A stretch of 64,000 nucleotides of DNA, taken from assembly GCA_965200315.1 (NCBI GenBank), contig OZ241362.1, forward strand, positions 576,001 to 640,000, read 5' to 3'. How positions within the stretch are numbered: the stretch's first letter is position 1; each line of letters opens with the position of its first letter. A model generated the notes under the pieces. That model made no database searches. It worked only from the letters and a program-made list of their open reading frames with translations, and was not told the origin of the DNA. The stretch is from Candidatus Latescibacterota bacterium (GTDB lineage: Bacteria; Latescibacterota; UBA2968; UBA8231). Both the position numbers and the translations under genes were made by a program. Shown here in pieces: positions 8,558-26,347 of the stretch.

Positions 8558-9632
8558 CAGCGACATGCTCCTCCCTCTGCAACTTGCACCCGTCGACAGC
8601 CTCTTCTTCCGCGATGCACGCCCCTTTGAGGAGGCCAGTCGCGCCGCCTCTGGCCTGCCCATGCCCCAGACCCTCGCCGGTGCCTTGCGCACCCTGCTGC
8701 TGGAGCATCACAGCGTGGACTTTGCCCAGTTAGCGAATCAGATCAAGGCAGGCAAACCGTTCGCCGAAGCCCTCTCTATAATCTGCCCGGCCGCCGCTGG
8801 CGTGGCCGCAGTGCGCTTGCGCGGCCCCTTTTTCACGTTGTCCGGTGAAGTCTTGGTGCGGGTCCCAAGCACCCTAAAGCAAATCGAAAAAACCGAGCAA
8901 CTCGTGCGGCTCGATCCATTGCAAAAACCCCCGCCCGGTTGGCAACCCCAAGCACCGGGCATGGTGCCGCTGTGGAGGCATGGCCGCAAACCAGCCAAAG
9001 CAATCGACGGCTTCCTCAAGCCCTCGGGCTTGCACCACTTCCTCACCGGCGACGTACCAACGCCGGATGACGTGGTGGCATCTAACGACGTTTACGATTT
9101 TGACGACCGCACGGGCATCGGCCTAGACGAACAGAGCAACACCGCCCAAGAAAGCCTCATCTACGGCATCAAGATGCTCGCACTGTGCCCCAAAGCCGGT
9201 CTATACGCCGAAGTGCGGGGCCCGGCCGACGCCTTGGCACCGCTTGCCGCTCAGGACGAGCCGCTCCTCATGCCCTTTGGCGGCGAGGGTCGGCGCGTCG
9301 TCGTCCGTGCAGCAGAGCAAGCAACGAACTGGTCGCAAGTACCGGCCACAGCCGACAAGGGCCGGTTGGTGCTGCTGACGGCACCGGCCTACTTCAACGG
9401 CTGGAAGCCCCCAGCGCTGGAGCCGCTCGCCGCGGCCGTCGGCCAGTACCAAGCCGTTTCCGGCTGGGACTTAGCCCAAGGCGGCCCCAAGCCCAACCGC
9501 TTCATGGTCCCGGCCGGCTCGGTGTACTTTCTGCCACCCCATACCCATGTACCCAGCGCCCTAGTCAGCGAAGAAGATGACGCGCTCGGCTGGGGCAGCT
9601 TTCTAGAAGGAAATTGGACCTATGTCGGATAA
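8550..9632 (+). CDS. cmr3: Type III-B Cmr3 (Cas5 family)
   Basis: PVDSLFFRDARPF, FGGEGR, SGWDLAQGGPKP, VPAGSVY, LGWG. Confidence 0.95.
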   Translation: MPNSDMLLPLQLAPVDSLFFRDARPFEEASRAASGLPMPQTLAGALRTLLLEHHSVDFAQLANQIKAGKPFAEALSIICPAAAGVAAVRLRGPFFTLSGEVLVRVPSTLKQIEKTEQLVRLDPLQKPPPGWQPQAPGMVPLWRHGRKPAKAIDGFLKPSGLHHFLTGDVPTPDDVVASNDVYDFDDRTGIGLDEQSNTAQESLIYGIKMLALCPKAGLYAEVRGPADALAPLAAQDEPLLMPFGGEGRRVVVRAAEQATNWSQVPATADKGRLVLLTAPAYFNGWKPPALEPLAAAVGQYQAVSGWDLAQGGPKPNRFMVPAGSVYFLPPHTHVPSALVSEEDDALGWGSFLEGNWTYVG

Positions 9633-10518
9633 AACCCTGCTGTTCATGCACGCCCTGACCGGGTTGCACCCAGGCAGCGGCACGGCCCTCGGCGTAGTCG
9701 ATCTGCCGGTGCAGCGCGAACGCCATACCCACTGGCCGACCATCCCCGGCTCGTCGCTGAAGGGCGTCCTCCGCGCCGAATGCCGGCGGGTTCTTGGCCG
9801 GGGAGCCGAGGACCTGCTAACGGCTTTTGGGCCGGAGATGGGCAACGCATCGGACCACGCCGGGGCCGTCGCCTTTGTGGACGCCCGCATTCTCGCCTTT
9901 CCGGTGCGCTCGCTGACCGGGGTGTTTGCTTGGGTGACCTGCCCGGCGGTGCTGGAGTGCCTCGCCCGCGACTTGGGGCTTGTGAGCAGCAACAAGCTCC
10001 CCGCCTTCCCCACTCCGAAGAAAGACACCGCTGCCTGTGTGCCCAACAGCCCGCTAATCGCGCACGACGAGCACCTGCTGTTGGAGGAATTTGAATTCGC
10101 CCTCGCCCGTGCCGACGCCGACGCCGACGCCAGCAAGATCGCCGACTGGATTGCGTGTCATGCCGTGCAAGACGAGGGGACAAGGGGCCGGCTGCGCCGT
10201 CACTTGGCCGTTTTGCACGACGACGATTTCACGCACTTCGTCCGCAACGCCACCGAAGTCGTCGCCCGCGTCGGCTTGGACTACGAATCGAAGACCGTGC
10301 GTAAGGGGGCGCTCTTTTACGAGGAATACCTACCGGCCGAGACCTTGTTCTATTCGCTGGTGCTGTCTAGCGACAGCCGCCGAGAATCGAATTCCAAAAG
10401 TGCCGCCCAGATCTTATCGTGGCTCCGCGACAACGCACCCACCGTGATTCAGATCGGCGGCGGCGAGACCGTTGGCAAGGGGCTATGTGCGGTCCACTTT
10501 GCGGAGGACATGCCATGA
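9622..10518 (+). CDS. cmr4: Type III-B Cmr4 (Cas7 family RNase)
   Basis: LHPGSG, VDLPVQRE (catalytic Asp), IPGSSLKG, QIGGGETVGKG. Confidence 0.97.
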   Translation: MSDKTLLFMHALTGLHPGSGTALGVVDLPVQRERHTHWPTIPGSSLKGVLRAECRRVLGRGAEDLLTAFGPEMGNASDHAGAVAFVDARILAFPVRSLTGVFAWVTCPAVLECLARDLGLVSSNKLPAFPTPKKDTAACVPNSPLIAHDEHLLLEEFEFALARADADADASKIADWIACHAVQDEGTRGRLRRHLAVLHDDDFTHFVRNATEVVARVGLDYESKTVRKGALFYEEYLPAETLFYSLVLSSDSRRESNSKSAAQILSWLRDNAPTVIQIGGGETVGKGLCAVHFAEDMP

Positions 10519-10919
10519 GCACACTCGACCAGCGCCGGGCACAACACGCTTGGGACGCCGTAGAGCAAGCGGCCAAACTCAAAGAAGACGACAAGAAAAC
10601 CTTCGCCCGCGAGGCCAAGAAGCTCCCCATCCGCATCAAGACCGCAGGGCTTGGGCAAGCCGTTGCCTTTCTCCGTGCCAAGAAAGACAAGAAAAAGCGA
10701 GAAGATGAAGATCCTCGCATACGCCTACTGAGAGAGCTTGGCAACTGGCTCCTCGACGAGCGTGGCCTAGAGTCGCCTTCGCAGGATGAGGACGCCCTAA
10801 TCCAAGCCATCATCCGCGGCGACGCCGACCTGCTGCGCCGCGCCACCGAAGAGGCCCTGTTGTACTTGCAATGGCTGACGCGCTTTGCCGAAGCAGAAAT
10901 CGGGACCGGAGATGACTAA
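10515..10919 (+). CDS. cmr5: Type III-B Cmr5 (Cas11)
   Basis: TLDQRRAQHAW, LPIRIKTAGLGQAVAF, WLTRFAEA; ATGA overlap with cmr4. Confidence 0.93.
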   Translation: MSTLDQRRAQHAWDAVEQAAKLKEDDKKTFAREAKKLPIRIKTAGLGQAVAFLRAKKDKKKREDEDPRIRLLRELGNWLLDERGLESPSQDEDALIQAIIRGDADLLRRATEEALLYLQWLTRFAEAEIGTGDD

Positions 10920-13215
10920 AATTATGTCAGAGGTTCCGACCCTGCCGAAAACGACCCGCGACCTGCTCGCGGCTGTTGGCGTTAAAAAACGCCACCCCGG
11001 CCTCCAGCTAGACAAGCTATCGGCTGTCGGCAATATGGAAAGCCAGAAGCAGGCGTTGGAGAAAGTCACCGCTACGCACCGCGACAATCAGCTATTGCAA
11101 AAGCTACGCGACCGCCGCTGCGACACCTTAGACCAACTCTTGGCCCAGCGGCTGACGATGACCACGGGCGGTCCGCTGACCCTGCATCTGTCGCGCTCGG
11201 GCGCACTCGAAAACGCCGGTATCGCCCTGCACCCACTCTACGGCTTTGCATACCTGCCGGGCAGCGGCATCAAGGGGCTTACTCGGGCCTATGCCGAGAC
11301 TATATGGGCACCGGCTCAGCCCGACCCGGAAAAGGCGTGGCGGCAAATTGAAGGGGCATTTGGCTGGAGCAGGGGATCGGAACGCCACAAAGGGAATTGG
11401 CGGCCCCAAACAGTCGAGCCTCAAGCAGGAGCCTCGACCGGCCGCATCGTCTTTCACGACGCTTGGCCCCTGTGTTGGCCTAAGCTCATCATCGACATCG
11501 CCAACAATCACCATCCCGCCTACTACGACGGCCAAGACGATCCGGGCGACTGGGAAGACCCGACGCCGATCTACTTTCTCGCTCTCGGCGCGGGCGAGCA
11601 GTTCGACTTCGCCCTGTCAGACCGCAAGCGCGAAAACGACCGTCTGCTCAGCTTGGCCTGCGACTGGCTGAAAAGTGCCCTGACTATCGAGGGAGCCGGA
11701 GCCAAGACCGCCGCCGGCTACGGCCGCTTCAAGCCGAAGGAAGGAAAACGAGCCTCCATCCCGCAAACGCTATGTAGTGCGACCTATGATCTGCGGCTGG
11801 CATCGCCAGCTTTTCTCGCCGGTGCCAATCAGCAGCAAGAAGACTGCGATTTGCGGCCCGCCACCTTGCGCGGCCTATTGCGCTGGTGGTGGCGCACCAT
11901 GCATGCGGCCCACCTCGACCGCGCTACGCTCAAAAAGCTGGAAACCGCCGTTTGGGGCGACGCCGAGAGCGGCAGCCCAGTGCGGATTGCCGTGGAGCGA
12001 GAGGGAGACGAGAAGCCGACGAAGTACGACCACAAGGACGACAAGAAAAAGTTCCTGCCGGAATCCAATTTTAAGCGTCAGCATGACCTTCAAGCCCCTC
12101 CAGACAAGAAGACGACCCAAGGGCTATTCTACGCTTCCTACGGCATGGACGACGCAGGCAAGAAGCGTTGGTACCGACCCGCAGGGACACGGTGGTCCAT
12201 CCGCCTTGACGTCCGGCGCGGTCGCTTGCCAGTCAACACCCCACACATGCAACCGCTAAAAATTGAACCCGCCGACCTACTCGCTCAGGCTGAGGTCGCT
12301 CTCTGGCTGCTGTGCCGTTTTGGCGGCGTCGGCTCAAAAGGACGCAAGGGCTTCGGATCTTTTGCGGACATTGAAGTCGAGGGCATTGCCAACGCACAGG
12401 ATTGCCAAGACCGTGCTAGGGACTTCAGGAGGCATACATGCCAGCTTAGCGATCACCAAGGCAAGACAGGTTCGCCCGCGCTAGAGCAAATGAACACATG
12501 TGAGATTCTGACGCCTTGGAGCGACCCTTGGACGGTACTCGACCAACTTGGCTATGCGGTCCAAGGCTTCGCCCAGCAATATGCACATGACGAGCGCAAA
12601 AAAGCCCTCGGCCTGCCGCGGAAAATCCACGGTCCCCGATCTTTACCAATAGTTCATCAAAAACAAAATCCTCGCAACCACAAGCAGCCTAAGACGTTAT
12701 CCGCCGGCGGAATTAAGCGGCACACCGCGCCCATTCACTATCACTTAGCGACAACAGACGAGGGCAAGCTACTCGTCCGCGCAACCGCTTTCCCAGCGCA
12801 TCGGCTACCCAATTATCGGAAAAGCAAAGAGATGCTGGACAAACTGGTGGCCTTTCTCAAAGAGGATCTGAAGAAACGCGTAGAACAGAATCCCAACATC
12901 GGCCAAAACCAAGGTGGGAACAGCCCGGCGAAACCGGCGAAACCCCTCCCCCAAGCCCGCGACCGCGTTCAAGCCGAACTCTTAGACGAAAAGACGAAGA
13001 AAGGCCGTTGGAAAGCCAAGCTCTTAGATGGGGAACTACAAGGCCCGATACAAGACCACGAAAACGTGCCGGACGACGCTAAGCCGGGGCAGCGTGTCGA
13101 ACTGACGGTGGTCTCTGTTAGCGAGAGAGAGGTGCAGTTCAGATGGAAACCGCTTCCAACGCCCAAGAAAACATCCGGCCAGAACAATGAACAACGGCGA
13201 GGACGCCGACGATAG
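10912..13215 (+). CDS. cmr6: Cmr6-Cmr1 fusion with C-terminal S1/OB-like domain
   Basis: Cmr6 motifs (LHPLYGFAYLPGSGIKG, GAGAKTAAGYG), then Cmr1 motifs (LRGLLRWWWR, GGVGSKGRKGFGS, LGLPR), then a beta-rich basic tail. Confidence 0.9.
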   Translation: MTKIMSEVPTLPKTTRDLLAAVGVKKRHPGLQLDKLSAVGNMESQKQALEKVTATHRDNQLLQKLRDRRCDTLDQLLAQRLTMTTGGPLTLHLSRSGALENAGIALHPLYGFAYLPGSGIKGLTRAYAETIWAPAQPDPEKAWRQIEGAFGWSRGSERHKGNWRPQTVEPQAGASTGRIVFHDAWPLCWPKLIIDIANNHHPAYYDGQDDPGDWEDPTPIYFLALGAGEQFDFALSDRKRENDRLLSLACDWLKSALTIEGAGAKTAAGYGRFKPKEGKRASIPQTLCSATYDLRLASPAFLAGANQQQEDCDLRPATLRGLLRWWWRTMHAAHLDRATLKKLETAVWGDAESGSPVRIAVEREGDEKPTKYDHKDDKKKFLPESNFKRQHDLQAPPDKKTTQGLFYASYGMDDAGKKRWYRPAGTRWSIRLDVRRGRLPVNTPHMQPLKIEPADLLAQAEVALWLLCRFGGVGSKGRKGFGSFADIEVEGIANAQDCQDRARDFRRHTCQLSDHQGKTGSPALEQMNTCEILTPWSDPWTVLDQLGYAVQGFAQQYAHDERKKALGLPRKIHGPRSLPIVHQKQNPRNHKQPKTLSAGGIKRHTAPIHYHLATTDEGKLLVRATAFPAHRLPNYRKSKEMLDKLVAFLKEDLKKRVEQNPNIGQNQGGNSPAKPAKPLPQARDRVQAELLDEKTKKGRWKAKLLDGELQGPIQDHENVPDDAKPGQRVELTVVSVSEREVQFRWKPLPTPKKTSGQNNEQRRGRRR

Positions 13216-13340: not shown

Positions 13341-14045
13341 ATGGAAGTTTTGAACTCATTGGCCGCCAAACCAACGCGGCCCCTATTGGAAAACGGCGAC
13401 CGGCTCACGCGAGCGGAATTTGAGCAACGCTACGAGGCCATGCCCGAAGTAAAAAAGGCCGAACTCATCAATGGAGTAGTATATATGGGCTCCCCCGTTC
13501 GCTTTCGTGCCCACGGCCACCCACACGTATTGCTGCTCACTTGGCTAGGGACATATAGCGCATTCACCCCAGGGGTTCTTTGTGCGGACAACGCCACGGT
13601 GCGGCTCGGGGCCGATAGCGAGCTTCAGCCGGATGCCTTGCTGCGCCTAGAGTTAGAGGTGGGGGGAAAGTCGCGGATTAGCACCGACGATTACGTAGAA
13701 GGCCCTCCAGAGTTAGTTGCCGAAATCGCAGCTAGCAGCACCTCGTACGATATGCACGATAAAATGGACGTGTATCGCCGCAGCGGTGTGCCGGAATACC
13801 TAGTCTGGCGCGTGTACGACGAGCAACTCGACTGGTTTGCCTTGCACGACGGTGCGTATATCCGCCTACTGCCCGATACGGCGGGCGCGATTTCGAGCGA
13901 CATATTTCCGGGGTTGCGATTGTTCCCATCGGCCTTGTTGGCCCATAATGCGGCGCAAGTCGTGGCCGAATTGCAAAAAGGCCTGGCGACGACCGCGCAC
14001 ACCGCGTTTATTGATCGCTTAGGAAGCGAAAAACCCAATGCCTAG
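13341..14045 (+). CDS. Uma2 family (DUF820) PD-(D/E)XK endonuclease
   Basis: AELINGVVYM, QPDALL, GPPELVAEIA, GVPEYLVW, FPGL. Confidence 0.9.
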   Translation: MEVLNSLAAKPTRPLLENGDRLTRAEFEQRYEAMPEVKKAELINGVVYMGSPVRFRAHGHPHVLLLTWLGTYSAFTPGVLCADNATVRLGADSELQPDALLRLELEVGGKSRISTDDYVEGPPELVAEIAASSTSYDMHDKMDVYRRSGVPEYLVWRVYDEQLDWFALHDGAYIRLLPDTAGAISSDIFPGLRLFPSALLAHNAAQVVAELQKGLATTAHTAFIDRLGSEKPNA

Positions 14046-14103
14046 ACACACTCTTATATGCACCATTGGCACCCACAACGCGCGCAAGCGCAAGGAGAGC
14101 ACC

Positions 14104-15222
14104 ATGACGACAATGCCTAGACACACCCTCATCTGCACCATTGGCACCAGCTTGTTCTACCCCAACCTGTCCAAGCTCGCGCAAACGAATCCAACGAATC
14201 CGCTAGGCAAGGCGTATGCGGGGCAAAAATGGAAGAACGTAGCCAGCCAACTGCATCTGCTTGAACCTACTGATCGGCAGTGTGGAGCCGAGATCAACTC
14301 GGTAGCCGATCTCCTACGCCGCGAATACATCGACAAGGTTCACTTACATCTGCTGTATTCCGATACGTCGGATGGAGAGCACATTGCCGCTGTCTTGGAC
14401 GCGTACTTTGCGGACGATGGCTGGCAGGTGCAAACCCATAGAGTATGCGATTTAAGCGACCAAGATCCGAGGGCGTTTCGCACCCGCGGCTTGCGCAACC
14501 TAGCCAAAATTCTCGGCCAATTGGTGCGCGACGCCGGGCCAGACTACTGCGCCATCAACGCTACCGGCGGCTACAAGGCGCAGATCGCCATTGCCGTGCT
14601 CATGGGTCAAGCCCTCGGCATTCCGGTGTACTACAAGCACGAGCGTTTTGATGAAATTATTCCCTTTCCGCCCATGCCAGTGGCCCTCGATTTTTCGCTC
14701 TGGCTCCGGGCCAGCGGCATGTTTACAGCACTCAGCCAGCCCAACGCCTGCGTGCCGGAGGCGCAGTTCAGCGAGGACTGGGATGAGCGCTTTGAGCCGC
14801 TGGTCGAACGGGTATCTATCGACGGCGTAAACTACCTCGAACTCTCGGCGACCGGCCAGATTTTTCACGACACCTTCCGTTCGCGTTTTCAGCAGCAGCA
14901 AGCCGGCAGCCTGCCGCCCGAGTCAAGCAAAAAGGAGGACCCTGAGCTGGGAGCGCACAGCTACAAAAACGCACACGAAACCATTTCGCGCTTTTTGCAA
15001 AAAATCACCGATGAGCGGCCTTACGTCCGTTCCTGTCACTCAACGTACTGGAACCCGGACCTACCTGAAGCGAATCGATTTCGCCTGTCCGGCGGACAAG
15101 TCCAAGGCATCTACTCGAACAGAACTTGGTGCGTGAAGTTCACAGTGCTTACAACCGCCAGCGAGCAGGACGACTTAGGCGTTGTCGTGGCCGATCTCAA
15201 CGAGTGGCTTAGTGATCAATAG
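14104..15222 (+). CDS. CARF-domain type III ancillary protein (APE2256-like) with uncharacterised C-terminal domain
   Basis: LICTIGTSL, GAEINS, INATGGYKA, YYKHERF; SD AAGGAG before ATG 14104. Confidence 0.88.
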   Translation: MTTMPRHTLICTIGTSLFYPNLSKLAQTNPTNPLGKAYAGQKWKNVASQLHLLEPTDRQCGAEINSVADLLRREYIDKVHLHLLYSDTSDGEHIAAVLDAYFADDGWQVQTHRVCDLSDQDPRAFRTRGLRNLAKILGQLVRDAGPDYCAINATGGYKAQIAIAVLMGQALGIPVYYKHERFDEIIPFPPMPVALDFSLWLRASGMFTALSQPNACVPEAQFSEDWDERFEPLVERVSIDGVNYLELSATGQIFHDTFRSRFQQQQAGSLPPESSKKEDPELGAHSYKNAHETISRFLQKITDERPYVRSCHSTYWNPDLPEANRFRLSGGQVQGIYSNRTWCVKFTVLTTASEQDDLGVVVADLNEWLSDQ

Positions 15223-15239
15223 AGGCGACGCGCAACCGC

Positions 15240-16289
15240 ATGGCGACTTCATTGCTCACTCTCTACGTCACCGAACCGTCCGCTGTAGTTCGCCGCTCGG
15301 CTGGCTCCCTCATCGTCACCCTCGACGAAGACCCAGACGGCGGCGGCCCCTTGCCCGAGCGTCGCCATCGCCTCCTTGAGGTGGAGCCGCATCGCTTGGA
15401 GCTGATTGCGCTGGTTGGCCGCGCCCATATCACTTTAGACGCAACGCGGCTTTGCTTGGAGCAAGGCATTGCGGTCGCTTGGTTTCGCCGCAACGGCGAC
15501 TTTATCGGCCGCCTCGTGCCCGAGCTATCGCGCACAGCCGATCTGCGCTTGGCCCAGTTTCGCCTCGCCGACGACGAGCAGCGAGCACTGCCGCTAGCCC
15601 AAACCTTTGTCGCTGCTAAGCTCCACAATGCGGCCTCTGTGCTCGCGGCCCTGCGCTCCAACCGCCGTAACGAGCCGACCCTCGGACGCTCCATAAGTGA
15701 ACTCAAGGCCCTCGCCGCAACGGTTGACCAAGCATCCACCCGGGAAACTCTACTCGGGTTTGAGGGCGATGCGGCCCGCCGCTACTTTGCCGGCCTCAAA
15801 ATCGGCTTCACCAGCGACATCCGCTTTACTAGGCGCGCCCGCCGGCCGCCGCCGGACCCGGCCAATGCTCTGCTCTCGTTTGGCTACGTGCTGTTGGCCA
15901 ATGCCTTGGCCAGCCTACTGGAGGCCCGCGGCTTTGACCCGTATTTAGGCTTTATGCACACGGTGCGTTCCGGTCGGCCCAGTTTGGCTCTCGACCTGCT
16001 CGAAGAATTGCGGCATCCGGTGGTCGATCGCTTTGTCTTGCGGGCCTGCAATTTGCGCCAGTTGCGGCCCGCCCACTTTGAGACCGATCCAAAGCGGGGT
16101 GGTGTACGTCTTACACCCGCTGGGTTGCGCGTTTTCTTTCGCATTTGGGAAGCATTTATGGACGCGCCCCTACCCGGGACTGGAGACACTATTTCGCCGG
16201 AAGATTTGCTCCGCCGTCAAGCCGACCGCTTAGCCGATCACGTGAGGGGACGCCAGCCATACCAGCCCTTGCTTCTGCGCCACGTATAA
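15240..16289 (+). CDS. cas1: Cas1 (no RT or Cas4 fusion)
   Basis: GFEGDAARRYF, PPPDPANALLSFGY, GFMH, LALDLLEELR. Confidence 0.97.
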   Translation: MATSLLTLYVTEPSAVVRRSAGSLIVTLDEDPDGGGPLPERRHRLLEVEPHRLELIALVGRAHITLDATRLCLEQGIAVAWFRRNGDFIGRLVPELSRTADLRLAQFRLADDEQRALPLAQTFVAAKLHNAASVLAALRSNRRNEPTLGRSISELKALAATVDQASTRETLLGFEGDAARRYFAGLKIGFTSDIRFTRRARRPPPDPANALLSFGYVLLANALASLLEARGFDPYLGFMHTVRSGRPSLALDLLEELRHPVVDRFVLRACNLRQLRPAHFETDPKRGGVRLTPAGLRVFFRIWEAFMDAPLPGTGDTISPEDLLRRQADRLADHVRGRQPYQPLLLRHV

Positions 16290-16300
16290 GGAGCGTTGCC

Positions 16301-16588
16301 ATGTCTCATTATGTCGTCTGCTACGATGTGGTCGATAACCGCCGCCGCTACAAGGTGGCTGCTTGTCTGGATGCCTATGGCGACCGCGTACAGGACAGCG
16401 TGTTTGAACTGCCCGTGGATCGCACACTCTTGGATAAATGCCTCGTCGCGCTTGCAGATTTGATCGACCCAGACAAAGACAACATCGCTGTCTATCGCCT
16501 ATGCACCACTTGCGCGAGCGAGCGTTTCTATTTGGGAACGGGCGCAAGGGCTGGGCGCATCGGCGAGGAGCAGGTCTTTATTGCATAA
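16301..16588 (+). CDS. cas2: Cas2
   Basis: YVVCYDV...RVQDSVFE; SD AAGGAG. Confidence 0.96.
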   Translation: MSHYVVCYDVVDNRRRYKVAACLDAYGDRVQDSVFELPVDRTLLDKCLVALADLIDPDKDNIAVYRLCTTCASERFYLGTGARAGRIGEEQVFIA

Positions 16589-16784
16589 AGGACATTCGTA
16601 ACCTTCATTCCTCCTCCAAACGAAAGGGGATTACGAATTTGACTAAGCCTTTGAATTTCTTATCTTTACATGCCACGCACTCACACGGATGCCGCTGCGG
16701 TAGGCAGAGCTTATACGCTCCGCCATTGGGTTACGAAATTCGTCCAGCTAACTGCTTGTTAGACAAGCAAATAGCCGAGATGGA
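16589..16784 (+). promoter_or_regulatory. CRISPR leader
   Basis: Less GC-rich non-coding segment between cas2 and the first repeat; degenerate repeat lies at the opposite end. Confidence 0.75.
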
Positions 16785-19700
16785 GTGTGAAATGTTGCCC
16801 CGATTTCTAGGGGATTGAAACTTACGCCGACCTGGACCCGGCCGGTGGCCCGGGCCCGGCGTGTGAAATGTTGCCCCGATTTCTAGGGGATTGAAACGCT
16901 GGGTGCGGGGATACTGAAAAGTCGTCATTACGATCTCGTGTGAAATGTTGCCCCGATTTCTAGGGGATTGAAACTGCGGGGTGGGTGGAGCGGGGGGGGG
17001 GGGGTTAGGCGCGTGTGAAATGTTGCCCCGATTTCTAGGGGATTGAAACGCCGAAGCCAACGGTCACGCCAGGACAGCACTGCCCCCTCGTGTGAAATGT
17101 TGCCCCGATTTCTAGGGGATTGAAACTCCGACATGCCCGCCTGCCTGAGGGCGAGGCGGACGAAGTGTGAAATGTTGCCCCGATTTCTAGGGGATTGAAA
17201 CGATAACAACTATCCTCCGCCCGGAGGCGGGGGTTTGCCTGTGTGAAATGTTGCCCCGATTTCTAGGGGATTGAAACCTGCCGCACCGTGGTGGCGGGGG
17301 GAAGGTTGAGAATGGGGGTGTGAAATGTTGCCCCGATTTCTAGGGGATTGAAACCCGATGACCGCCATCGCTTCGAGGAATTCACGGAAGCGGGGTGTGA
17401 AATGTTGCCCCGATTTCTAGGGGATTGAAACTTGATGGCCGCAGGGGTCTTCGGCTCGAACCGGGGCGCGTGTGAAATGTTGCCCCGATTTCTAGGGGAT
17501 TGAAACACTGCTTCGATGGTGCTCATGATGATTCCTTTCTGAAAGGGTGTGAAATGTTGCCCCGATTTCTAGGGGATTGAAACCCGCCCGGTAGGCCGGC
17601 CCGCCCGTGGCGAGCAAGATAAAGTGTGAAATGTTGCCCCGATTTCTAGGGGATTGAAACTATAGGGCTTTTGGAGTTTACAAAAAAGTTAGGCACGGGT
17701 GTGAAATGTTGCCCCGATTTCTAGGGGATTGAAACCTTTGGTGGCCGCTGGCGCGCGCGCCTCGAACCGGGGCGCCGGCGTGTGAAATGTTGCCCCGATT
17801 TCTAGGGGATTGAAACTCCTTCTTGGAGGACACCGCGCCGATCGCCATCCCTATTGTGTGAAATGTTGCCCCGATTTCTAGGGGATTGAAACTGTGCTGC
17901 GGGGGTGGCTTGAGTCGTCATTGTAACAAGTGTGAAATGTTGCCCCGATTTCTAGGGGATTGAAACCGGGGGCGGTTTTCTGAGTGGTCGTCATAACAAT
18001 CTCCGTGTGAAATGTTGCCCCGATTTCTAGGGGATTGAAACCCTCCACCTGGTGGTAGGCGTGGCCGTAGCCATCGCCGTGTGAAATGTTGCCCCGATTT
18101 CTAGGGGATTGAAACCTTCTGCCTGGTAATGCAGGAAGGCCAACGTATGGCGGGTGTGAAATGTTGCCCCGATTTCTAGGGGATTGAAACTGCCATTGAT
18201 TGTGAGGGTGGCGGGGCCCTCGAGGGGTACGTTGTGTGAAATGTTGCCCCGATTTCTAGGGGATTGAAACAGGAGCTGCCGACAGCGGCTCACGACGAGA
18301 CCCGCTGCACGTGTGAAATGTTGCCCCGATTTCTAGGGGATTGAAACACAATCCCCTCTCCGCGAGGGGTTTCGGCGCGCGCCCCGACGATGGGGGCCGC
18401 GCCGACTTCCGTGTGTGAAATGTTGCCCCGATTTCTAGGGGATTGAAACCGCGACATAGCGGATGAGCTCCGCCTCTTTGGCAGGCTCGTGTGAAATGTT
18501 GCCCCGATTTCTAGGGGATTGAAACTGACCACCACCGCCTCAAGGAGTTCACGGCAGCGGGTCATGTGTGAAATGTTGCCCCGATTTCTAGGGGATTGAA
18601 ACAAGAAATACCAACCCGCGACTAACTCGCGCGGAACATCTTGTGTGAAATGTTGCCCCGATTTCTAGGGGATTGAAACGCGATAATAAAGCAATGCGTT
18701 TCATTTCAATCTCCTAATGGTGTGAAATGTTGCCCCGATTTCTAGGGGATTGAAACCTTCTTGGAGGTGGCCGTGGTGGTCATGCTATTCTCCTTCCCCG
18801 TGTGAAATGTTGCCCCGATTTCTAGGGGATTGAAACTCTCCTTGCCCCTGTGGGGCTATGAGAGTTAGTACAAAAAAGGTGTGAAATGTTGCCCCGATTT
18901 CTAGGGGATTGAAACCTTCTTGGAGGTGGCCGTGGTGGTCATGCTATTCTCCTTCCCCGTGTGAAATGTTGCCCCGATTTCTAGGGGATTGAAACTCTCC
19001 TTGCCCCTGTGGGGCTATGAGAGTTAGTACAAAAAAGGTGTGAAATGTTGCCCCGATTTCTAGGGGATTGAAACGCAGCTTCTCGAAGACCTCCCGCGAT
19101 GCTCTGCGGCGATGGTGTGAAATGTTGCCCCGATTTCTAGGGGATTGAAACATTGGGCAGTACGAAAGTTGTCATACGATTCTCCTTGCCCGTGTGAAAT
19201 GTTGCCCCGATTTCTAGGGGATTGAAACGGACGAGGGACGTGCGGGCGGTTAGGAGTTTCATTTTCAATGTGTGAAATGTTGCCCCGATTTCTAGGGGAT
19301 TGAAACACAGACGACGGCGACCAAGTGAATCGGCAGGGTGCCGATCAGTGTGAAATGTTGCCCCGATTTCTAGGGGATTGAAACTGCAATCTCCTCTAGT
19401 GCGGCCGTTATGGCCTCCGAGAGAGTGTGAAATGTTGCCCCGATTTCTAGGGGATTGAAACGCGATAATAAAGCAATGCGTTTCATTTCAATCTCCTAAT
19501 GGTGTGAAATGTTGCCCCGATTTCTAGGGGATTGAAACCTTCTTGGAGGTGGCCGTGGTGGTCATGCTATTCTCCTTCCCCGTGTGAAATGTTGCCCCGA
19601 TTTCTAGGGGATTGAAACTCTCCTTGCCCCTGTGGGGCTATGAGAGTTAGTACAAAAAAGGTGTGAAATGTTGCCCCGATTTCTAGGGGATTGAAACGCA

Positions 19701-22700
19701 GCTTCTCGAAGACCTCCCGCGATGCTCTGCGGCGATGGTGTGAAATGTTGCCCCGATTTCTAGGGGATTGAAACATTGGGCAGTACGAAAGTTGTCATAC
19801 GATTCTCCTTGCCCGTGTGAAATGTTGCCCCGATTTCTAGGGGATTGAAACGGACGAGGGACGTGCGGGCGGTTAGGAGTTTCATTTTCAATGTGTGAAA
19901 TGTTGCCCCGATTTCTAGGGGATTGAAACACAGACGACGGCGACCAAGTGAATCGGCAGGGTGCCGATCAGTGTGAAATGTTGCCCCGATTTCTAGGGGA
20001 TTGAAACTGCAATCTCCTCTAGTGCGGCCGTTATGGCCTCCGAGAGAGTGTGAAATGTTGCCCCGATTTCTAGGGGATTGAAACCCGCGCCAGCTTGTAC
20101 TTATACGTCATCATTGCGCGGCGGTGTGAAATGTTGCCCCGATTTCTAGGGGATTGAAACTTCCATTCTCCTTTTTTACGGTGCATGCCTTGACAAACCA
20201 GTGTGAAATGTTGCCCCGATTTCTAGGGGATTGAAACCCTTTCCCCCCAAAACGCACACGGCGCACGGCCGCTAAGTGTGAAATGTTGCCCCGATTTCTA
20301 GGGGATTGAAACCTCCTTGCCCCGTTAGGGGCTCTCTATGGAGTGAATACAAGTGTGAAATGTTGCCCCGATTTCTAGGGGATTGAAACTCGTCATCTTT
20401 CTCTTTCTCCTTCTCCTTTCTTTCTTGTGTGAAATGTTGCCCCGATTTCTAGGGGATTGAAACCTCCGCCTTATGGATTTGATGGCGGCGGCGGTCGGCC
20501 TCGTGTGAAATGTTGCCCCGATTTCTAGGGGATTGAAACTTGGGGGACAGCCGGACGGCGTTGTCGTACTCCTCAACGGGTGTGAAATGTTGCCCCGATT
20601 TCTAGGGGATTGAAACACGGTTTCGCGGACGGACTGGGACTGCTGGGTGCTGCTGGGTGTGAAATGTTGCCCCGATTTCTAGGGGATTGAAACGGGGCGA
20701 GCCCCCAGTTCCCGCAGAATATTGTCCACCATCCGTGTGAAATGTTGCCCCGATTTCTAGGGGATTGAAACGATGGCACGGGTTGAACTGGTGCTGCTGG
20801 ACTGCATGCTGCGTGTGAAATGTTGCCCCGATTTCTAGGGGATTGAAACCATGTGAAGAAGTAATAGCCTTCGGGGCGTGCTGCCCCGTGTGTGAAATGT
20901 TGCCCCGATTTCTAGGGGATTGAAACCTGCCGCGCCCCTTCATGGCTAAGGTCGCGGGGGGCTATGTGTGAAATGTTGCCCCGATTTCTAGGGGATTGAA
21001 ACCCAGGCCCGCGCGCCAACACTGTGCTCCTCTACATCTACGTGTGAAATGTTGCCCCGATTTCTAGGGGATTGAAACGCGAGACTGCTGGGTGCGGGGG
21101 TACTGGAACGTGGTCATGTGTGAAATGTTGCCCCGATTTCTAGGGGATTGAAACCGGCGGCGGCCTTCTGCCTCAGCCCAGGCGCGCAGCCCCCGTGTGA
21201 AATGTTGCCCCGATTTCTAGGGGATTGAAACCAACTTCGGCCATTCGGCCGCCTGAAAATATAGTTCAAGTGTGAAATGTTGCCCCGATTTCTAGGGGAT
21301 TGAAACGGCGGGAGGGGTGGGGCGGGGGGCTATGCGCGGCCGGCGGGTGTGAAATGTTGCCCCGATTTCTAGGGGATTGAAACATGCTTTTCTCCTTCTT
21401 TGGGGGTGAAAAAAACTGGTTTCGGTGTGAAATGTTGCCCCGATTTCTAGGGGATTGAAACTTGTGCAATACTTTTTTTCTCTTATTCCCCACTTTTCAC
21501 GTGTGAAATGTTGCCCCGATTTCTAGGGGATTGAAACATCCCGATGCGGGCGAAGCGCGTAAGGGTCTCGATGGTCTCGGTGTGAAATGTTGCCCCGATT
21601 TCTAGGGGATTGAAACTCATGGGTGGCCTCCTTGAGCTGGGCGAGTAGCTCCGGAGAGTGTGAAATGTTGCCCCGATTTCTAGGGGATTGAAACCCGCGA
21701 CATTCTCATCGCGGGCGGCATCGAGCCGCTCTTCGTGTGAAATGTTGCCCCGATTTCTAGGGGATTGAAACACCTCCCCAAGGATGAGCGTAAGGTGCAG
21801 GTACAGCGCTGTGTGAAATGTTGCCCCGATTTCTAGGGGATTGAAACAAGCTAGAGCGTTTTTTCGATAGTTCGTCGGGCACCTCCGGTGTGAAATGTTG
21901 CCCCGATTTCTAGGGGATTGAAACTATTTCTGCTGGCTTCAAGCTCGGCGTGGGCTGAGCCGCCCTGTGCGGCCTACGTGTGAAATGTTGCCCCGATTTC
22001 TAGGGGATTGAAACAGATCTACGGTTGCGCGGATGCGCGCATCGCGCTCCGCAGGTGTGAAATGTTGCCCCGATTTCTAGGGGATTGAAACGTCGTGCCC
22101 AGGACGTGGGAGGCTAACCGCTTTCGCGGCGTGTGAAATGTTGCCCCGATTTCTAGGGGATTGAAACGGAGTCGGAGTCGTAGCGGGACCAGTCCCTTAT
22201 GAGGACAGGTGTGAAATGTTGCCCCGATTTCTAGGGGATTGAAACCTGACCGACGCGGTGAAGTGCGACGTCACCTTGTCGATGTGTGAAATGTTGCCCC
22301 GATTTCTAGGGGATTGAAACACGTAGACTACCGTCGCCTTCTCCTCGCCGTCCGCCGACTCCGGTGTGAAATGTTGCCCCGATTTCTAGGGGATTGAAAC
22401 GTGGCGCGACACGAAGATATTCATTTCAATCTCCTTGGGAGTGTGAAATGTTGCCCCGATTTCTAGGGGATTGAAACGTGCTGCGAGACTGCGACTGCTG
22501 ATTGGGGTACTGAAAAGGTGTGAAATGTTGCCCCGATTTCTAGGGGATTGAAACTCAGTAACCTCTGGCGGCGCGAACTTCGGCGTCGCGCATGTGTGAA
22601 ATGTTGCCCCGATTTCTAGGGGATTGAAACAGGATTAGGTGGGTGTGGGGGGCTAACCCCACGGATTTGGAGAGTGTGAAATGTTGCCCCGATTTCTAGG

Positions 22701-25316
22701 GGATTGAAACCGCGTCCCCGGAGGGGTTTTAACGTGCAATTCCCAACCGTGTGAAATGTTGCCCCGATTTCTAGGGGATTGAAACTGCTGCTGGTTTGGC
22801 AGTACGAAAGTTGTCATGCGAGTGTGTGAAATGTTGCCCCGATTTCTAGGGGATTGAAACATCTTGTAGGTGGTCATAGTTCAATCCTCTCGGTTGGCGA
22901 GGTGTGAAATGTTGCCCCGATTTCTAGGGGATTGAAACGGAAATACAACTCTACTTCTACTTTCTTCATCTTCATGAGTGTGAAATGTTGCCCCGATTTC
23001 TAGGGGATTGAAACCATAGACATCGACGCGGTAGACCGCGACACCAACTTCAGTGTGAAATGTTGCCCCGATTTCTAGGGGATTGAAACTCTGCGAGAGA
23101 CTCGCGGAGCTCGTTTTCGCCCATGCCGAGTGTGAAATGTTGCCCCGATTTCTAGGGGATTGAAACGGGGATGCCGTTTGTCTCCAATTCGGCGCGGGCG
23201 CGGGTGTGAAATGTTGCCCCGATTTCTAGGGGATTGAAACACGGGTTGCGTGCGCGTGCCCACTACCTCGTACTAGGAGGTGTGAAATGTTGCCCCGATT
23301 TCTAGGGGATTGAAACACGCCGGTTGGCCGAGCCGGGGGCCTTGCCAGTGCGGCCGGGTGTGAAATGTTGCCCCGATTTCTAGGGGATTGAAACGAAAGG
23401 ATGCGCATGAGTGTTCGGGGGCCGGGCGTCATCGTGTGAAATGTTGCCCCGATTTCTAGGGGATTGAAACGGACCGGCGCGTGCGGGTTAGTGGGCGCTG
23501 CGCATGATCTCGTGTGAAATGTTGCCCCGATTTCTAGGGGATTGAAACGTGAATAACCACGCCTCCCTCTTCGGGGGCGGCGGCCTTGGGTGTGAAATGT
23601 TGCCCCGATTTCTAGGGGATTGAAACGCTACTGCGCTGTCGACCAATCCGAAGATGCGCGAAGGCGTGTGAAATGTTGCCCCGATTTCTAGGGGATTGAA
23701 ACACCAGTCATGTAGAGATGGCACGGAGTACTTCCCGTGAGGGTGTGAAATGTTGCCCCGATTTCTAGGGGATTGAAACTCTGCGAGAGACTCGCGGAGC
23801 TCGTTTTCGCCCATGCCGAGTGTGAAATGTTGCCCCGATTTCTAGGGGATTGAAACGGGGATGCCGTTTGTCTCCAATTCGGCGCGGGCGCGGGTGTGAA
23901 ATGTTGCCCCGATTTCTAGGGGATTGAAACACGGGTTGCGTGCGCGTGCCCACTACCTCGTACTAGGAGGTGTGAAATGTTGCCCCGATTTCTAGGGGAT
24001 TGAAACACGCCGGTTGGCCGAGCCGGGGGCCTTGCCAGTGCGGCCGGGTGTGAAATGTTGCCCCGATTTCTAGGGGATTGAAACGAAAGGATGCGCATGA
24101 GTGTTCGGGGGCCGGGCGTCATCGTGTGAAATGTTGCCCCGATTTCTAGGGGATTGAAACGGACCGGCGCGTGCGGGTTAGTGGGCGCTGCGCATGATCT
24201 CGTGTGAAATGTTGCCCCGATTTCTAGGGGATTGAAACGTGAATAACCACGCCTCCCTCTTCGGGGGCGGCGGCCTTGGGTGTGAAATGTTGCCCCGATT
24301 TCTAGGGGATTGAAACGCTACTGCGCTGTCGACCAATCCGAAGATGCGCGAAGGCGTGTGAAATGTTGCCCCGATTTCTAGGGGATTGAAACACCAGTCA
24401 TGTAGAGATGGCACGGAGTACTTCCCGTGAGGGTGTGAAATGTTGCCCCGATTTCTAGGGGATTGAAACGCGAGCTTCTCCGCCGCGGCGCGTTTCACGC
24501 CGGCCGCGGTGTGAAATGTTGCCCCGATTTCTAGGGGATTGAAACCGGCCGTGCTCGCTGGCGTCATACTGAAAGGATGCGCATGAGTGTGAAATGTTGC
24601 CCCGATTTCTAGGGGATTGAAACTAGTTCTCCCGGGGCTCGCTACGGGGCCATACAAAAACGGTGTGAAATGTTGCCCCGATTTCTAGGGGATTGAAACT
24701 CGGTGCGCTGCTCGGTGGTGCGGGTTTCTTTTTTAGCAGGTGTGAAATGTTGCCCCGATTTCTAGGGGATTGAAACCTGCTGCGCCCGCCGGTGGCGCCG
24801 CAGAGCAGCCCCCGGTGTAAAATGTTGCCCCGATTTCTAGGGGATTGAAACCGGACTATCCGGCGTCAAAAAGGCAACTAGAAGCTACAGTGTGAAATGT
24901 TGCCCCGATTTCGAGGGGATTGAAACAGTTTCCCCCCCCTCGAAGACGTGGTAATGAGCTAGGGGCTGTGTGAAATGTTGCCCCGATTTCTAGGGGATTG
25001 AAACGGCACTGTAGTGCTCGAAGGCTAGTTGGTGGCGGATGGCGTGTGAAATGTTGCCCCGATTTCTAGGGGATTGAAACTGCCAGCGCAAACAACGCGC
25101 TGGGGTGAAATGCAACTGCGTGTGAAATGTTGCCCCGATTTCTAGGGGATTGAAACCCATGCGCTGGGCCTCGTCGTAGACGATGAACGGGTAGGTGGTG
25201 TGAAATGTTGCCCCGATTTCTAGGGGATTGAAACCCTGGTAAGCGGTAAGGCTATCACACACTCGCTACTATTTAACCAGTATAAAATGTTACCCCCATT
25301 ATCAGGGAATCGACAC
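16785..25316 (+). CRISPR. CRISPR array, ~111 repeats / ~110 spacers (~91 unique)
   Basis: 37-nt repeat GTGTGAAATGTTGCCCCGATTTCTAGGGGATTGAAAC with CCCC/GGGG stem and ATTGAAAC 3' tag; spacers mostly 37-44 nt; degenerate last repeat at 25280-25316. Confidence 0.99.
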
Positions 25317-25356
25317 AAAAAAGGTCGGAAGCATAGATGACGCTCCGACCTTTTTT
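25317..25356 (+). terminator. Intrinsic terminator after the array
   Basis: AAAAAAAGGTCGGA...TCCGACCTTTTTT. Confidence 0.85.
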
Positions 25357-25519
25357 ATTTATAAAGTTGCGTCCACCGCCTGCTTGACGCTCTAAAAACA
25401 AAGGCATTATTTAGCGGCTGGGCGATCAGACTGAAGCTCTTTTGCTATGGATTGGCGCGAGCACCTCGACTACCCCCGGGTGCGCGGGCGTCTCGCCCGC
25501 TTTGCGTGTCACTTTTACT

Positions 25520-26347
25520 ATGGATTGGCGCGAGCACCTCGACTACCTACTCTCTTGCGTTCAGATACAGGCGCGGCTGTTGCTGCTAGACACGCCTCTA
25601 GTTGAAGCGACCACGCCCATGTTGCGGGGCGTCTGGGGGCGGGCACTGCGGCATTTGGACGAGGAGGCGTATCAGCAGGTGTTCGCAGGCGACATGCTGG
25701 GGCATCGGCGCGTCCCCCGCTACATCCTGAGGCCAGCACCCCCCGACCCAGCGACTGCACCGGCCATCGAATGGCTCTTGCTCGGAGTCCACGAAAATTT
25801 AGAAGAAGTATTGTGGCGGGCTTGGGACGTGGCCAGCGGCATGGGGCTGGGGCCTGAGCGCACACCCTTTCGCGTACGCGAATGGCGACCGCTGGGCGCG
25901 GATAAATGGGACTTATCCACTGCAACCTGGCCCCTGCCCGGCGACCCCGCCACTACGCCGTGCCGCCTGCATTTCCCTACATCCCTGCGACTGCTCCGGG
26001 GCGGCAAACTGCTTTCCACCCCAAACTTAGAGGATGTGGCGACAGCTACCACACGCCGCATCGCCACGCTAGCCGGCACAACCAGCGGAGAAACCTATCG
26101 AGATTTAATCCGAAATATCGGTCAGGTGGCCGCCGGGCTAGCGGGTGCTCCGTGGCGCGGGCGGCGGTTCGACTTTGTGCGCTGGTCCGGTGCCCAACAG
26201 CGCGAGCTAAACATGCGCGGCGTGACCGGCGACTTAGCCCTGCCCACAGGGCCCGGCCCACTCTGGCCGCTATTGGCCGCCGCTTGCTGGACCCATATTG
26301 GCAAAGGCACGGTCTTTGGGCTAGGCCAATTGCACATCACACCGTAA
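25520..26347 (+). CDS. cas6: Cas6 crRNA-processing endoribonuclease
   Basis: MLRGVWG, FPTSLRL, C-terminal G-rich loop HIGKGTVFGLG. Confidence 0.9.
   Translation: MDWREHLDYLLSCVQIQARLLLLDTPLVEATTPMLRGVWGRALRHLDEEAYQQVFAGDMLGHRRVPRYILRPAPPDPATAPAIEWLLLGVHENLEEVLWRAWDVASGMGLGPERTPFRVREWRPLGADKWDLSTATWPLPGDPATTPCRLHFPTSLRLLRGGKLLSTPNLEDVATATTRRIATLAGTTSGETYRDLIRNIGQVAAGLAGAPWRGRRFDFVRWSGAQQRELNMRGVTGDLALPTGPGPLWPLLAAACWTHIGKGTVFGLGQLHITP

What the first reader, a model, noticed from the sequence alone, without database searches (positions are those of the whole stretch)
16898..24662. About ten spacers tile one conserved leader and N-terminus across variants of an unknown element
Seen (reverse complements). 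Leader variants: CTTTTTTGTACTAACTCTCATAGCCCCACAGGGGCAAGGAGA (18837), TTGTATTCACTCCATAGAGAGCCCCTAACGGGGCAAGGAG (20313), CTTTTTTGTAAACTCCAAAAGCCC (17661), TTTTTGTATGGCCCC...GGGAGAACTA (24624). Spacer 19152 bridges GGGCAAGGAGA to MTTFVLPN. Coding variants: MTTFVLPNQQ (22786), FQYPNQQSQSRS (22478), MTTFQYPRTQQSR (21079), MTTFQYPRTQ (16898), possibly STQQSQSV (20617). They run from old to newest array positions. Inference: a T-tract / GCCCC-GGGGC hairpin / SD leader drives a key early gene of a persistent, diversifying phage or plasmid family, an attractive anti-defence candidate reconstructed from the array alone.
Basis: partly seen in the sequence, partly recalled or inferred. Interest (0 to 1): 0.78.

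Follow-up and report, generated by a model that had tools for sequence, protein, structure and literature searches.

The report
CRISPR spacers pile on one gene start
A bacterial RNA-targeting CRISPR memory bank has repeatedly stored guides against the leader and first codons of one gene of an unidentified phage or plasmid family, a natural example of a recently described hotspot effect.

Summary
Window 16785-25234 is one CRISPR array of 110 repeats and 109 spacers (90 unique), read on the + strand, beside a complete type III-B (Cmr) module. All ten quoted spacers are at the stated coordinates. Eight are firmly related and two are probable. Read as reverse complements, they cover a 5' leader (T-run, GCCCC/GGGGC hairpin, AAGGAG) and the first ~16-20 codons of one gene, MTTF(Q/V)(Y/L)P(R/N)..QQS, in at least six allelic forms. 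Differences inside each allele pair are all synonymous (4 of 4 and 2 of 2). A second array of 246 repeats in the same genome carries another allele. Related spacers in the two arrays are co-oriented in 25 of 26 pairs.

The best reading is a type III spacer hotspot at the 5' end of a promoter-proximal, probably early, gene of a diversifying mobile element. This effect was shown experimentally for type III-A in 2026.

The target was not found in any collection searched, so "early gene" is inferred and "anti-defence" is untested. I rate this a new member of a known kind, of moderate interest.

Side finding: seven solitary repeat-insert-repeat units with the geometry of a CRISPR unit. They look like ectopic spacer integrations.

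The parts
16785..25234 (+). CRISPR array D: 110 copies of a 37-nt repeat ending ATTGAAAC, 109 spacers of 37-65 nt, 90 of them unique. Internal block duplications: spacers 25-34 repeated as 35-42, the pair 26-27 present three times, and 82-90 repeated as 91-99.
16589..16784 (+). Array leader, between cas2 and the first repeat.
   Evidence: sequence; position inferred
25280..25360 (+). Degenerate terminal repeat (27/37 identical to the repeat, 25280-25316) followed by a hairpin and T-run terminator (25317-25360). This fixes transcription on the + strand, with the old end of the array here.
16898..16937 (+). Spacer D2. The reverse complement reads SD-like GAGA, then ATG and MTTFQYPRTQ.
17661..17698 (+). 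Spacer D12. The reverse complement is a leader variant (T-run, TTGTA, ACTCC, start of the hairpin).
18837..18878 (+). Spacer D27, with identical copies at 18996-19037 and 19619-19660. The reverse complement reads T-run, anti-SD-like UCUC, GCCCC-ACA-GGGGC hairpin, AAGGAGA.
19152..19191 (+). Spacer D31, with an identical copy at 19775-19814. The reverse complement bridges GGGCAAGGAGA to ATG and MTTFVLPN.
20313..20352 (+). Spacer D46. The reverse complement is a leader variant with the same hairpin stem, a different loop (TAAC), and AAGGAG.
20617..20656 (+). Spacer D50 (probable member). The reverse complement reads SSTQQSQSVRET and shares 13/14 nt with D74 in the same frame.
21079..21117 (+). 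Spacer D56. The reverse complement starts exactly at ATG and reads MTTFQYPRTQQSR.
22478..22517 (+). Spacer D74. The reverse complement reads (T)FQYPNQQSQSRS.
22786..22823 (+). Spacer D78. The reverse complement reads ACTCGC, ATG, MTTFVLPNQQ.
24624..24662 (+). Spacer D102 (probable member, oldest). The reverse complement is a diverged leader ending in GGGAGAAC.
5939..13215 (+). Type III-B effector genes: Cmr2/Cas10 (5939-8557, GGDD at residue 656), Cmr3 (8472-9632), Cmr4-like RAMP (9622-10518), Cmr5 (10419-10919), and a 776-aa protein with two RAMP stretches (10885-13215).
14038..16588 (+). CARF protein (Cas_APE2256, 14038-15222), Cas1 (15240-16289) and Cas2 (within 16145-16588).
25442..26347 (+). 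Cas6 endoribonuclease. The likely start is the ATG at 25520.

Best explanation
Array D belongs to a complete type III-B (Cmr) system, which recognises RNA.

Shown:
- Ten of its 90 unique spacers, and at least one spacer of a second array in the same genome, are antisense to a stretch of roughly 120 nt.
- That stretch comprises a leader of about 50-57 nt (T-run, 5-bp GC hairpin directly abutting an AAGGAG Shine-Dalgarno) and the first 16-20 codons of one protein-coding gene.
- The stretch was sampled from at least six alleles at different times in the array's history.

Inferred:
- The gene sits just downstream of a strong, probably early, promoter of a phage or plasmid family that keeps re-infecting this lineage.
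- Transcription-coupled adaptation oversamples such 5' regions. Selection then keeps only spacers whose crRNA pairs with the transcript.
- Binding of the crRNA to the nascent early mRNA would activate Cas10 (GGDD cyclase), and the CARF protein next door would amplify the response.
- The hairpin next to the SD is most simply a 5'-UTR or intercistronic stem that stabilises the mRNA or tunes its translation.
For: - Type III-B gene set with a GGDD Cas10, a CARF protein, Cas1, Cas2 and Cas6.
- Array orientation is fixed by a degenerate last repeat and a terminator.
- All ten spacers plus C14 share one orientation (chance about 0.001 under no strand preference).
- Coding is shown by substitution pattern: D2 vs D56 has 4 synonymous and 0 non-synonymous differences in 10 codons. 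D31 vs D78 has 2 and 0 in 8 codons.
- Leader continuity: exact 11-nt and 10-nt end overlaps of D27 and D46 with D31.
- No other cluster among the 412 spacers has more than 4 members.
- Related spacer pairs of arrays C and D matching over 15 nt or more: 25 co-oriented, 1 opposite.
- SD-ATG-open-frame motifs are commoner in the reverse complement than in the forward reading. Array D: 13 vs 5 of 90, shuffles 2.8±1.6. Array C: 20 vs 10 of 242. Together 33 vs 15, p 0.013.
- Precedent 1: type III-A acquisition peaks 10-50 bp downstream of an early phage promoter, independent of interference, and natural spacers show the same (PMC13575424; abstract and sections 21-22 read).
- Precedent 2: strand bias by selection, and early-region spacers, in Thermus (PMC7515739; abstract and outline read).
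Against: - The target was never found, so neither its mobile nature, its timing of expression nor a promoter is observed.
- No convincing promoter hexamers could be read from the four leader variants.
- Spacers D12 and D102 reach over the T-run in the same orientation. This suggests the T-run is itself transcribed, so the promoter may lie further upstream and the leader may be intercistronic.
- The start-site enrichment in the larger array C is weak: 20 of 242, against a shuffle mean of 10.4 with a maximum of 23.
- The hairpin stem does not vary between D27 and D46, so there is no covariation. Fold z-scores are only -2.3 and -2.0.
- The precedent concerns type III-A in a Firmicute, not III-B.
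Confidence: 0.6

Rival explanations
1. The hotspot is set by DNA ends rather than by transcription. The leader and gene would lie next to the genome terminus (cos/pac end, the first DNA injected) or another site of free DNA ends, from which Cas1-Cas2 preferentially takes fragments. Selection then only fixes the strand.
For: End-proximal acquisition is established for other CRISPR types (recalled, not read here). A first-injected end would also carry the first early gene, so it predicts the same picture. In one search, overlapping spacers elsewhere in array C (C172, C186, C171, C138) also form local pile-ups.
Against: In the one system tested, the type III hotspot disappeared when the -10 box was mutated, and it moved with the promoter on a plasmid (PMC13575424, section 21). 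Here several other recurrent targets are also gene starts (D15/D16, D14/D26, D25/D73, D8/D23/C9, C73/D79, C187/D80). One terminus cannot explain that.
Confidence: 0.15
2. The target is a small, high-copy plasmid or satellite with very few genes. Its single strong leader would then be hit many times simply because the element is tiny.
For: Ten of 90 unique spacers fall on about 120 nt. No phage hallmark is seen in these spacers.
Against: The other 80 unique spacers of the array show few mutual overlaps, which is not expected if the whole source were a few kb. One shared C cluster encodes a collagen-like GDK repeat of the kind annotated as tail fibre or minor tail protein in phages. That match is low-complexity and weak.
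Confidence: 0.1
3. The gene is a mobile promoter-plus-gene cassette (a moron, for instance an anti-defence gene) shared by otherwise unrelated elements.
For: The coding alleles differ sharply at residues 5-6 (QY vs VL) and 8-9 while keeping MTTF..P..QQ. The leaders differ just upstream of the ATG. In S. thermophilus phages the promoter-proximal variable region holds anti-CRISPR genes (PMC13575424, section 22).
Against: No sequence beyond about 20 residues is known. There is no family match and no neighbouring genes. Position alone does not separate an anti-defence gene from a cro-like regulator or any other first early gene.
Confidence: 0.12
4. The grouping is an artefact of low-complexity similarity (SD motifs, CAG repeats) and in-array duplication.
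For: SD contexts of different gene starts resemble each other: D26 is the second-best partner of D31. The 9-nt D78-D50 overlap is a CAG repeat that gives the wrong frame. D102 scores at noise level.
Against: Counts used unique spacers only. The core pairs match over 19-23 nt with E values of 3e-4 to 5e-9, and their differences are confined to third codon positions. An independent array carries a further allele.
Confidence: 0.03

Closest known systems
Type III-A spacer-acquisition hotspot at early phage promoters in Streptococcus thermophilus (Noble-Molnar et al., NAR 2026, PMC13575424)
   Same: An RNA-targeting type III array. Many independent spacers pile up on the first tens of bases of the gene next to a promoter. 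The same is seen in natural arrays across phage variants. The promoter-proximal region may hold cro-like or anti-CRISPR genes.
   Different: Here the system is III-B (Cmr) in an unrelated GC-rich genome. Promoter, timing and target genome are unknown. The pile-up includes about 50 nt of leader upstream of the start codon. The evidence comes from the array alone.
Type III spacer selection in Thermus thermophilus phage infection (Artamonova et al., NAR 2020, PMC7515739)
   Same: Cas1 has no reverse transcriptase. Surviving spacers are strongly biased to the strand that gives crRNA complementary to the transcript, and many come from the early region.
   Different: That work attributes the bias to selection after unbiased acquisition. 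It did not describe a single 5'-end hotspot recurring across alleles.
Intrinsic (rho-independent) terminator
   Same: A short GC-rich hairpin and a T-run lie close together.
   Different: The T-run lies 13-16 nt upstream of the hairpin on the sense strand, and there is no T-run after it on either strand. It is not a terminator.

Membership tests
Type III-B (Cmr) CRISPR-Cas system | Cas10/Cmr2 large subunit with a palm domain and GGDD motif | tested here: met
   Pfam Cmr2_N (1e-30) and Cas10-Cmr2_palm2 (4e-29). GGDD at residue 656.
Type III-B (Cmr) CRISPR-Cas system | Cmr3, Cmr4, Cmr5 and Cmr6/Cmr1-type RAMP subunits in one operon | tested here: met
   Cas_Cmr3 (2e-55), RAMPs (9e-23 and 1e-25, the latter with two stretches), Cas_Cmr5 (7e-28).
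Type III-B (Cmr) CRISPR-Cas system | crRNA-guided recognition of RNA | not testable with these tools
   Inferred from the gene set and from the antisense orientation of the spacers.
Type III early-promoter spacer hotspot | Many independent spacers of a type III array within the first tens of bases of one transcription unit | tested here: met
   Ten unique spacers of array D and one of array C fall on roughly 120 nt of leader plus first codons. The next largest cluster has 4 members.
Type III early-promoter spacer hotspot | A promoter immediately upstream of the pile-up | tested here: inconclusive
   The four leader variants share TTTTTGTA and a C(A/G)TAG block. No convincing -35/-10 pair with normal spacing could be read.
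Type III early-promoter spacer hotspot | The target gene is expressed early in infection | not testable with these tools
   Target element not found in any collection.
Type III early-promoter spacer hotspot | The bias arises at acquisition, independent of interference | not testable with these tools
   Needs an adaptation assay in an effector-null strain.
Anti-defence (e.g. anti-CRISPR) gene | Inhibits a host defence system; typically a small gene with an aca-type regulator nearby | not testable with these tools
   Only 16-20 N-terminal residues are known. Protein search tools need at least 40 residues.
Intrinsic terminator | GC-rich hairpin followed directly by a T-run | tested here: not met
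   In D27, D46 and D12 the T-run precedes the hairpin. What follows the hairpin is AAGGAG.
SD-sequestering 5'-UTR stem | An upstream anti-SD segment pairs with the SD, supported by covariation | tested here: inconclusive
   The MFE folds of D27 and D46 both pair UCUC/CUCC with GAGA/GGAG around the hairpin. However, z is only -2.3 and -2.0, there are two sequences, and there is no compensatory change.

The most novel reading that the evidence does not exclude
The pile-up may be one instance of a general rule in this organism. Its type III adaptation machinery would preferentially sample the untranslated leader and first codons of transcription units. One of its two modules carries a TPR-primase-polymerase next to Cas1-Cas2. 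If the rule holds, natural type III arrays could be read as maps of the 5' ends of the early genes of unknown phages.

Supporting hints:
- About 9 of about 23 recurrently hit sites in arrays C and D contain a start codon (my count).
- One solitary off-array integration unit, presumably not under selection for interference, also carries a hairpin-SD-ATG fragment.
Probability: 0.3. Interest if true: 0.6.

Novelty: new member of a known kind. Interest (0 to 1): 0.36.

Why it matters
If the reading is right, this is independent, natural evidence that the early-promoter hotspot of type III adaptation extends further than the one study so far. That study used type III-A of Streptococcus thermophilus. 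Here the effect would also hold for a type III-B system in a distant, GC-rich lineage, and would persist over many infections by diverging variants.

It also shows that the 5' UTR, ribosome-binding site and N-terminus of a gene of a virus nobody has sequenced can be reconstructed allele by allele from a host array. That gives ready-made primers and probes for fishing the element out of its habitat.

The gene itself, as the first product of a recurrent invader, is a reasonable place to look for a regulator or an anti-defence protein. Nothing yet says which.

Tried and rejected
**Search for the target (all negative)**
- A back-translated N-terminus pattern covering both allele classes found 0 stretches in viral contigs, metagenome contigs and genome contigs. 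In 76 genomes of the order it hit only the two spacers of the own genome.
- A looser QYP-only pattern found 0 in viral contigs.
- Back-translated patterns of four other recurrent targets gave 0, 0, 0 and 0 in viral contigs. One gave 2 stretches. Spacer blast showed matches of 17 nt or less, so these are chance.
- A gapped hairpin-SD-ATGAC pattern returned 83 stretches in metagenome contigs. In the 80 loci read, none encodes MTTF(Q/V)(Y/L)P, and spacer identity does not go beyond what the pattern imposes. A hairpin abutting AAGGAG is therefore a common arrangement and is not diagnostic.
- Whole array D against phages and plasmids: megablast gave no match. blastn gave only hits at E 0.6-0.7.
- Whole array C: plasmids gave none. 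Phages gave 9 records, all on one low-complexity collagen-like spacer.
- Own genome, six frames: only the spacers themselves.
- Arrays of relatives: 15 of 30 genomes of the genus have arrays with similar repeats, but none shares spacers with this genome.
- The exact repeat was not found in genome contigs.

**Ideas dropped**
- I first read the partial spacer matches at genome 130-148 kb as a resident prophage. One search showed they are a second CRISPR array.
- An open-reading-frame test for strand was uninformative in this GC-rich sequence.
- Rfam places the repeat only below threshold, in CRISPR-DR families on both strands, so it gives no orientation.

**Sequencing runs**
- The look-up of sequencing runs listed one DNA-type holder and no RNA holder.
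- Laying it showed short contigs identical to parts of the locus and gave nothing on the target.

**Closed or limited tools**
- Supplementary files of the two papers were not opened. Their spacer tables might refine the comparison.


Full report
**What is there**

Window 16785-25234 is a single CRISPR array: 110 copies of a 37-nt repeat and 109 spacers of 37-65 nt. Ninety spacers are unique. The rest come from internal block duplications: spacers 25-34 recur as 35-42, the pair 26-27 occurs three times, and 82-90 recur as 91-99.

Upstream on the same strand lie:
- Cmr2/Cas10, Cmr3, a Cmr4-like RAMP and Cmr5;
- a 776-aa protein with two RAMP stretches;
- an Uma2 nuclease and a CARF protein;
- Cas1 and Cas2.

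Cas6 follows the array. Cas10 keeps GGDD. This is a complete type III-B locus.

After the last perfect repeat come a 45-nt spacer, a degenerate repeat (27/37 identical) and a hairpin with a T-run. The array is therefore read on the + strand. The leader is at the cas2 side, and low-numbered spacers are the newest.

**The observation**

The coding group has five firm members:
- D2 (MTTFQYPRTQ)
- D56 (MTTFQYPRTQQSR)
- D74 (FQYPNQQSQSRS)
- D31 (SD, then MTTFVLPN)
- D78 (MTTFVLPNQQ)

D50 (SSTQQSQSVRET) is a probable member. It shares 13/14 nt with D74 in the same frame.

The leader group has D27 and D46. Both read ...CATAG.., a GCCCC-loop-GGGGC hairpin and AAGGAG. D12 has D27 as its best partner among 386 spacers. 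D102 is probable only: it scores at noise level, but is colinear with D46 in two blocks.

D27 and D46 end with the 11 and 10 nt that begin D31. This links the leader to the start codon.

Pairwise matches among all 412 spacers of the genome are significant: D31-D78 20/20, D2-D56 18/19.

The coding reading is secure. D2 and D56 differ at four positions in ten codons, all synonymous. D31 and D78 differ at two positions in eight codons, both synonymous.

**A second array hits the same gene**

Partial matches of spacers to genome positions 130-148 kb turned out to be a second array, not a prophage. Array C has 246 repeats with a different repeat that also ends ATTGAAAC.

Its 14th spacer reads TFQYPRTHEAPR and is identical to D2 over 23 nt. 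This is a further allele of the same N-terminus. In all, the genome has six arrays and 412 spacers.

Arrays C and D share many variant pairs of spacers. Among pairs matching over 15 nt or more, 25 are co-oriented and 1 is opposite. That is expected if only spacers giving crRNA complementary to transcripts are kept.

The largest other cluster has four members. The leader and N-terminus cluster has ten in D and one in C.

**Other gene starts**

Several other recurrent targets are also translation starts:
- D15/D16
- D14/D26
- D25/D73
- D8/D23/C9
- C73/D79
- C187/D80

A motif of SD, ATG and an open frame is commoner in the reverse complement than in the forward reading:
- Array D: 13 vs 5 of 90, with shuffles at 2.8±1.6.
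- Array C: 20 vs 10 of 242, with shuffles at 10.4±3.0.
- Together: 33 vs 15, p 0.013.

The enrichment is real but moderate, and it is weak in array C.

**The leader**

The T-run lies upstream of the hairpin and no T-run follows it, so this is not a terminator.

The folds of D27 and D46 both show the 5-bp GC hairpin, enclosed by pairing of an upstream UCUC/CUCC with the SD (z -2.3 and -2.0). The stem does not vary, so there is no covariation.

A hairpin abutting AAGGAG before ATGAC is common in metagenomes: 83 stretches were found, none related to this gene. It is a generic architecture.

I read it as a 5'-UTR or intercistronic stem that stabilises the mRNA or tunes translation. This is inference.

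**The target**

The target was not found. The searches were:
- patterns for the N-terminus and for five other recurrent targets;
- the whole arrays against phage and plasmid records;
- the own genome in six frames;
- 75 relatives of the order;
- relatives' arrays.

All gave nothing beyond chance. Protein searches could not be run because at most about 20 residues are known and the tools need 40.

One cluster in array C (C135/C160) encodes a collagen-like GDK repeat. It matches tail-fibre genes of actinophages only through low complexity. That is a faint hint of a tailed phage.

**Comparison with what is known**

Noble-Molnar et al. 2026 (PMC13575424; abstract and sections 21-22 read) showed the following for type III-A in S. 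thermophilus:
- Acquisition peaks 10-50 bp downstream of an early phage promoter.
- The peak is independent of interference.
- It is abolished by a -10 mutation and enhanced when translation is blocked.
- Natural spacers show the same hotspots, in a region that can hold cro-like or anti-CRISPR genes.

Artamonova et al. 2020 (PMC7515739; abstract and outline read) showed strand bias by selection in Thermus.

The present case fits both. It adds a type III-B example in a distant lineage, with allelic series over time. It is a new member of a known kind. The anti-defence idea remains an untested possibility.

**Verdict**

- Observation: confirmed.
- Interpretation: partly supported.
- Confidence that this is a genuine recurrent 5'-end hotspot on one gene: about 0.9.
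- Confidence that the gene is promoter-proximal and early in a phage or plasmid: about 0.6.
- Confidence that it is an anti-defence gene: about 0.12.
- Interest: 0.36.

Noticed in passing
window 14036-14148 and 25439-25547; also genome C1 near 1858064, 2346916, 2365232, 3176349, 5211926: Seven solitary units were found: a 35-39-nt direct repeat, a 33-44-nt insert, and the same repeat again (period 69-79 nt). This is the geometry of one CRISPR repeat-spacer unit. Among 30 isolated two-copy direct repeats at periods of 40-300 nt, 8 fall at 70-79, against about 1 per 10-nt bin elsewhere. Three of those 8 look like coding or REP repeats. Two inserts are exact copies of host sequence elsewhere (37/37 and 33/33). 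One is 24/25 identical to spacer C105. The one at window 14074-14110 is a hairpin-AAGGAGA-ATGACGA fragment like the phage gene starts in array D. The two units in the window sit at the 5' ends of the CARF gene (in frame) and of cas6. They look like ectopic Cas1-Cas2 integrations ('neo-CRISPR'; that term and its 2018 paper are recalled, and one search did not find it in the library).
   Followed up: partly
genome C1 129082-147678 and upstream (L001 2224-8823): There is a second array of 246 repeats with its own adaptation module: Cas6, an HD protein, a weak CARF-like protein, a 643-aa TPR plus archaeo-eukaryotic primase-polymerase (AEP-TOTE, 1e-42), Cas1 and Cas2. No effector genes are adjacent. 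The arrangement resembles CRISPR-associated primase-polymerases (PMC8211822; seen in a search listing only).
   Followed up: partly
window 18680-20047 and 23090-24432: Large internal duplications of spacer blocks occur inside array D: spacers 25-34 recur as 35-42, the pair 26-27 occurs three times, and 82-90 recur as 91-99. They may be real recombination or an assembly effect. The short contigs of run X1 could not tell.
   Followed up: no
window 18348-18412 and 21925-21977: Two spacers are unusually long (65 and 53 nt) in an array whose spacers are otherwise 37-44 nt.
   Followed up: no
genome C1 1-838, 7732-8194, 3780242-3782141, 4186939-4188014, near 4569429: Four further CRISPR arrays with different repeats (11, 7, 27 and 17 repeats) are present, plus a two-repeat mini-array with a GTGTTCCCCGCACACGCGGGGATGAACCG-like repeat. 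Two spacers of array E match array C spacers in the opposite orientation, as expected if E belongs to a DNA-targeting type.
   Followed up: no
window 25475-25511; genome-wide: A palindromic element of about 24 nt (core GCGCGGGCGTCTCGCCCGC) is dispersed in more than 50 copies over the genome, like a REP element.
   Followed up: no
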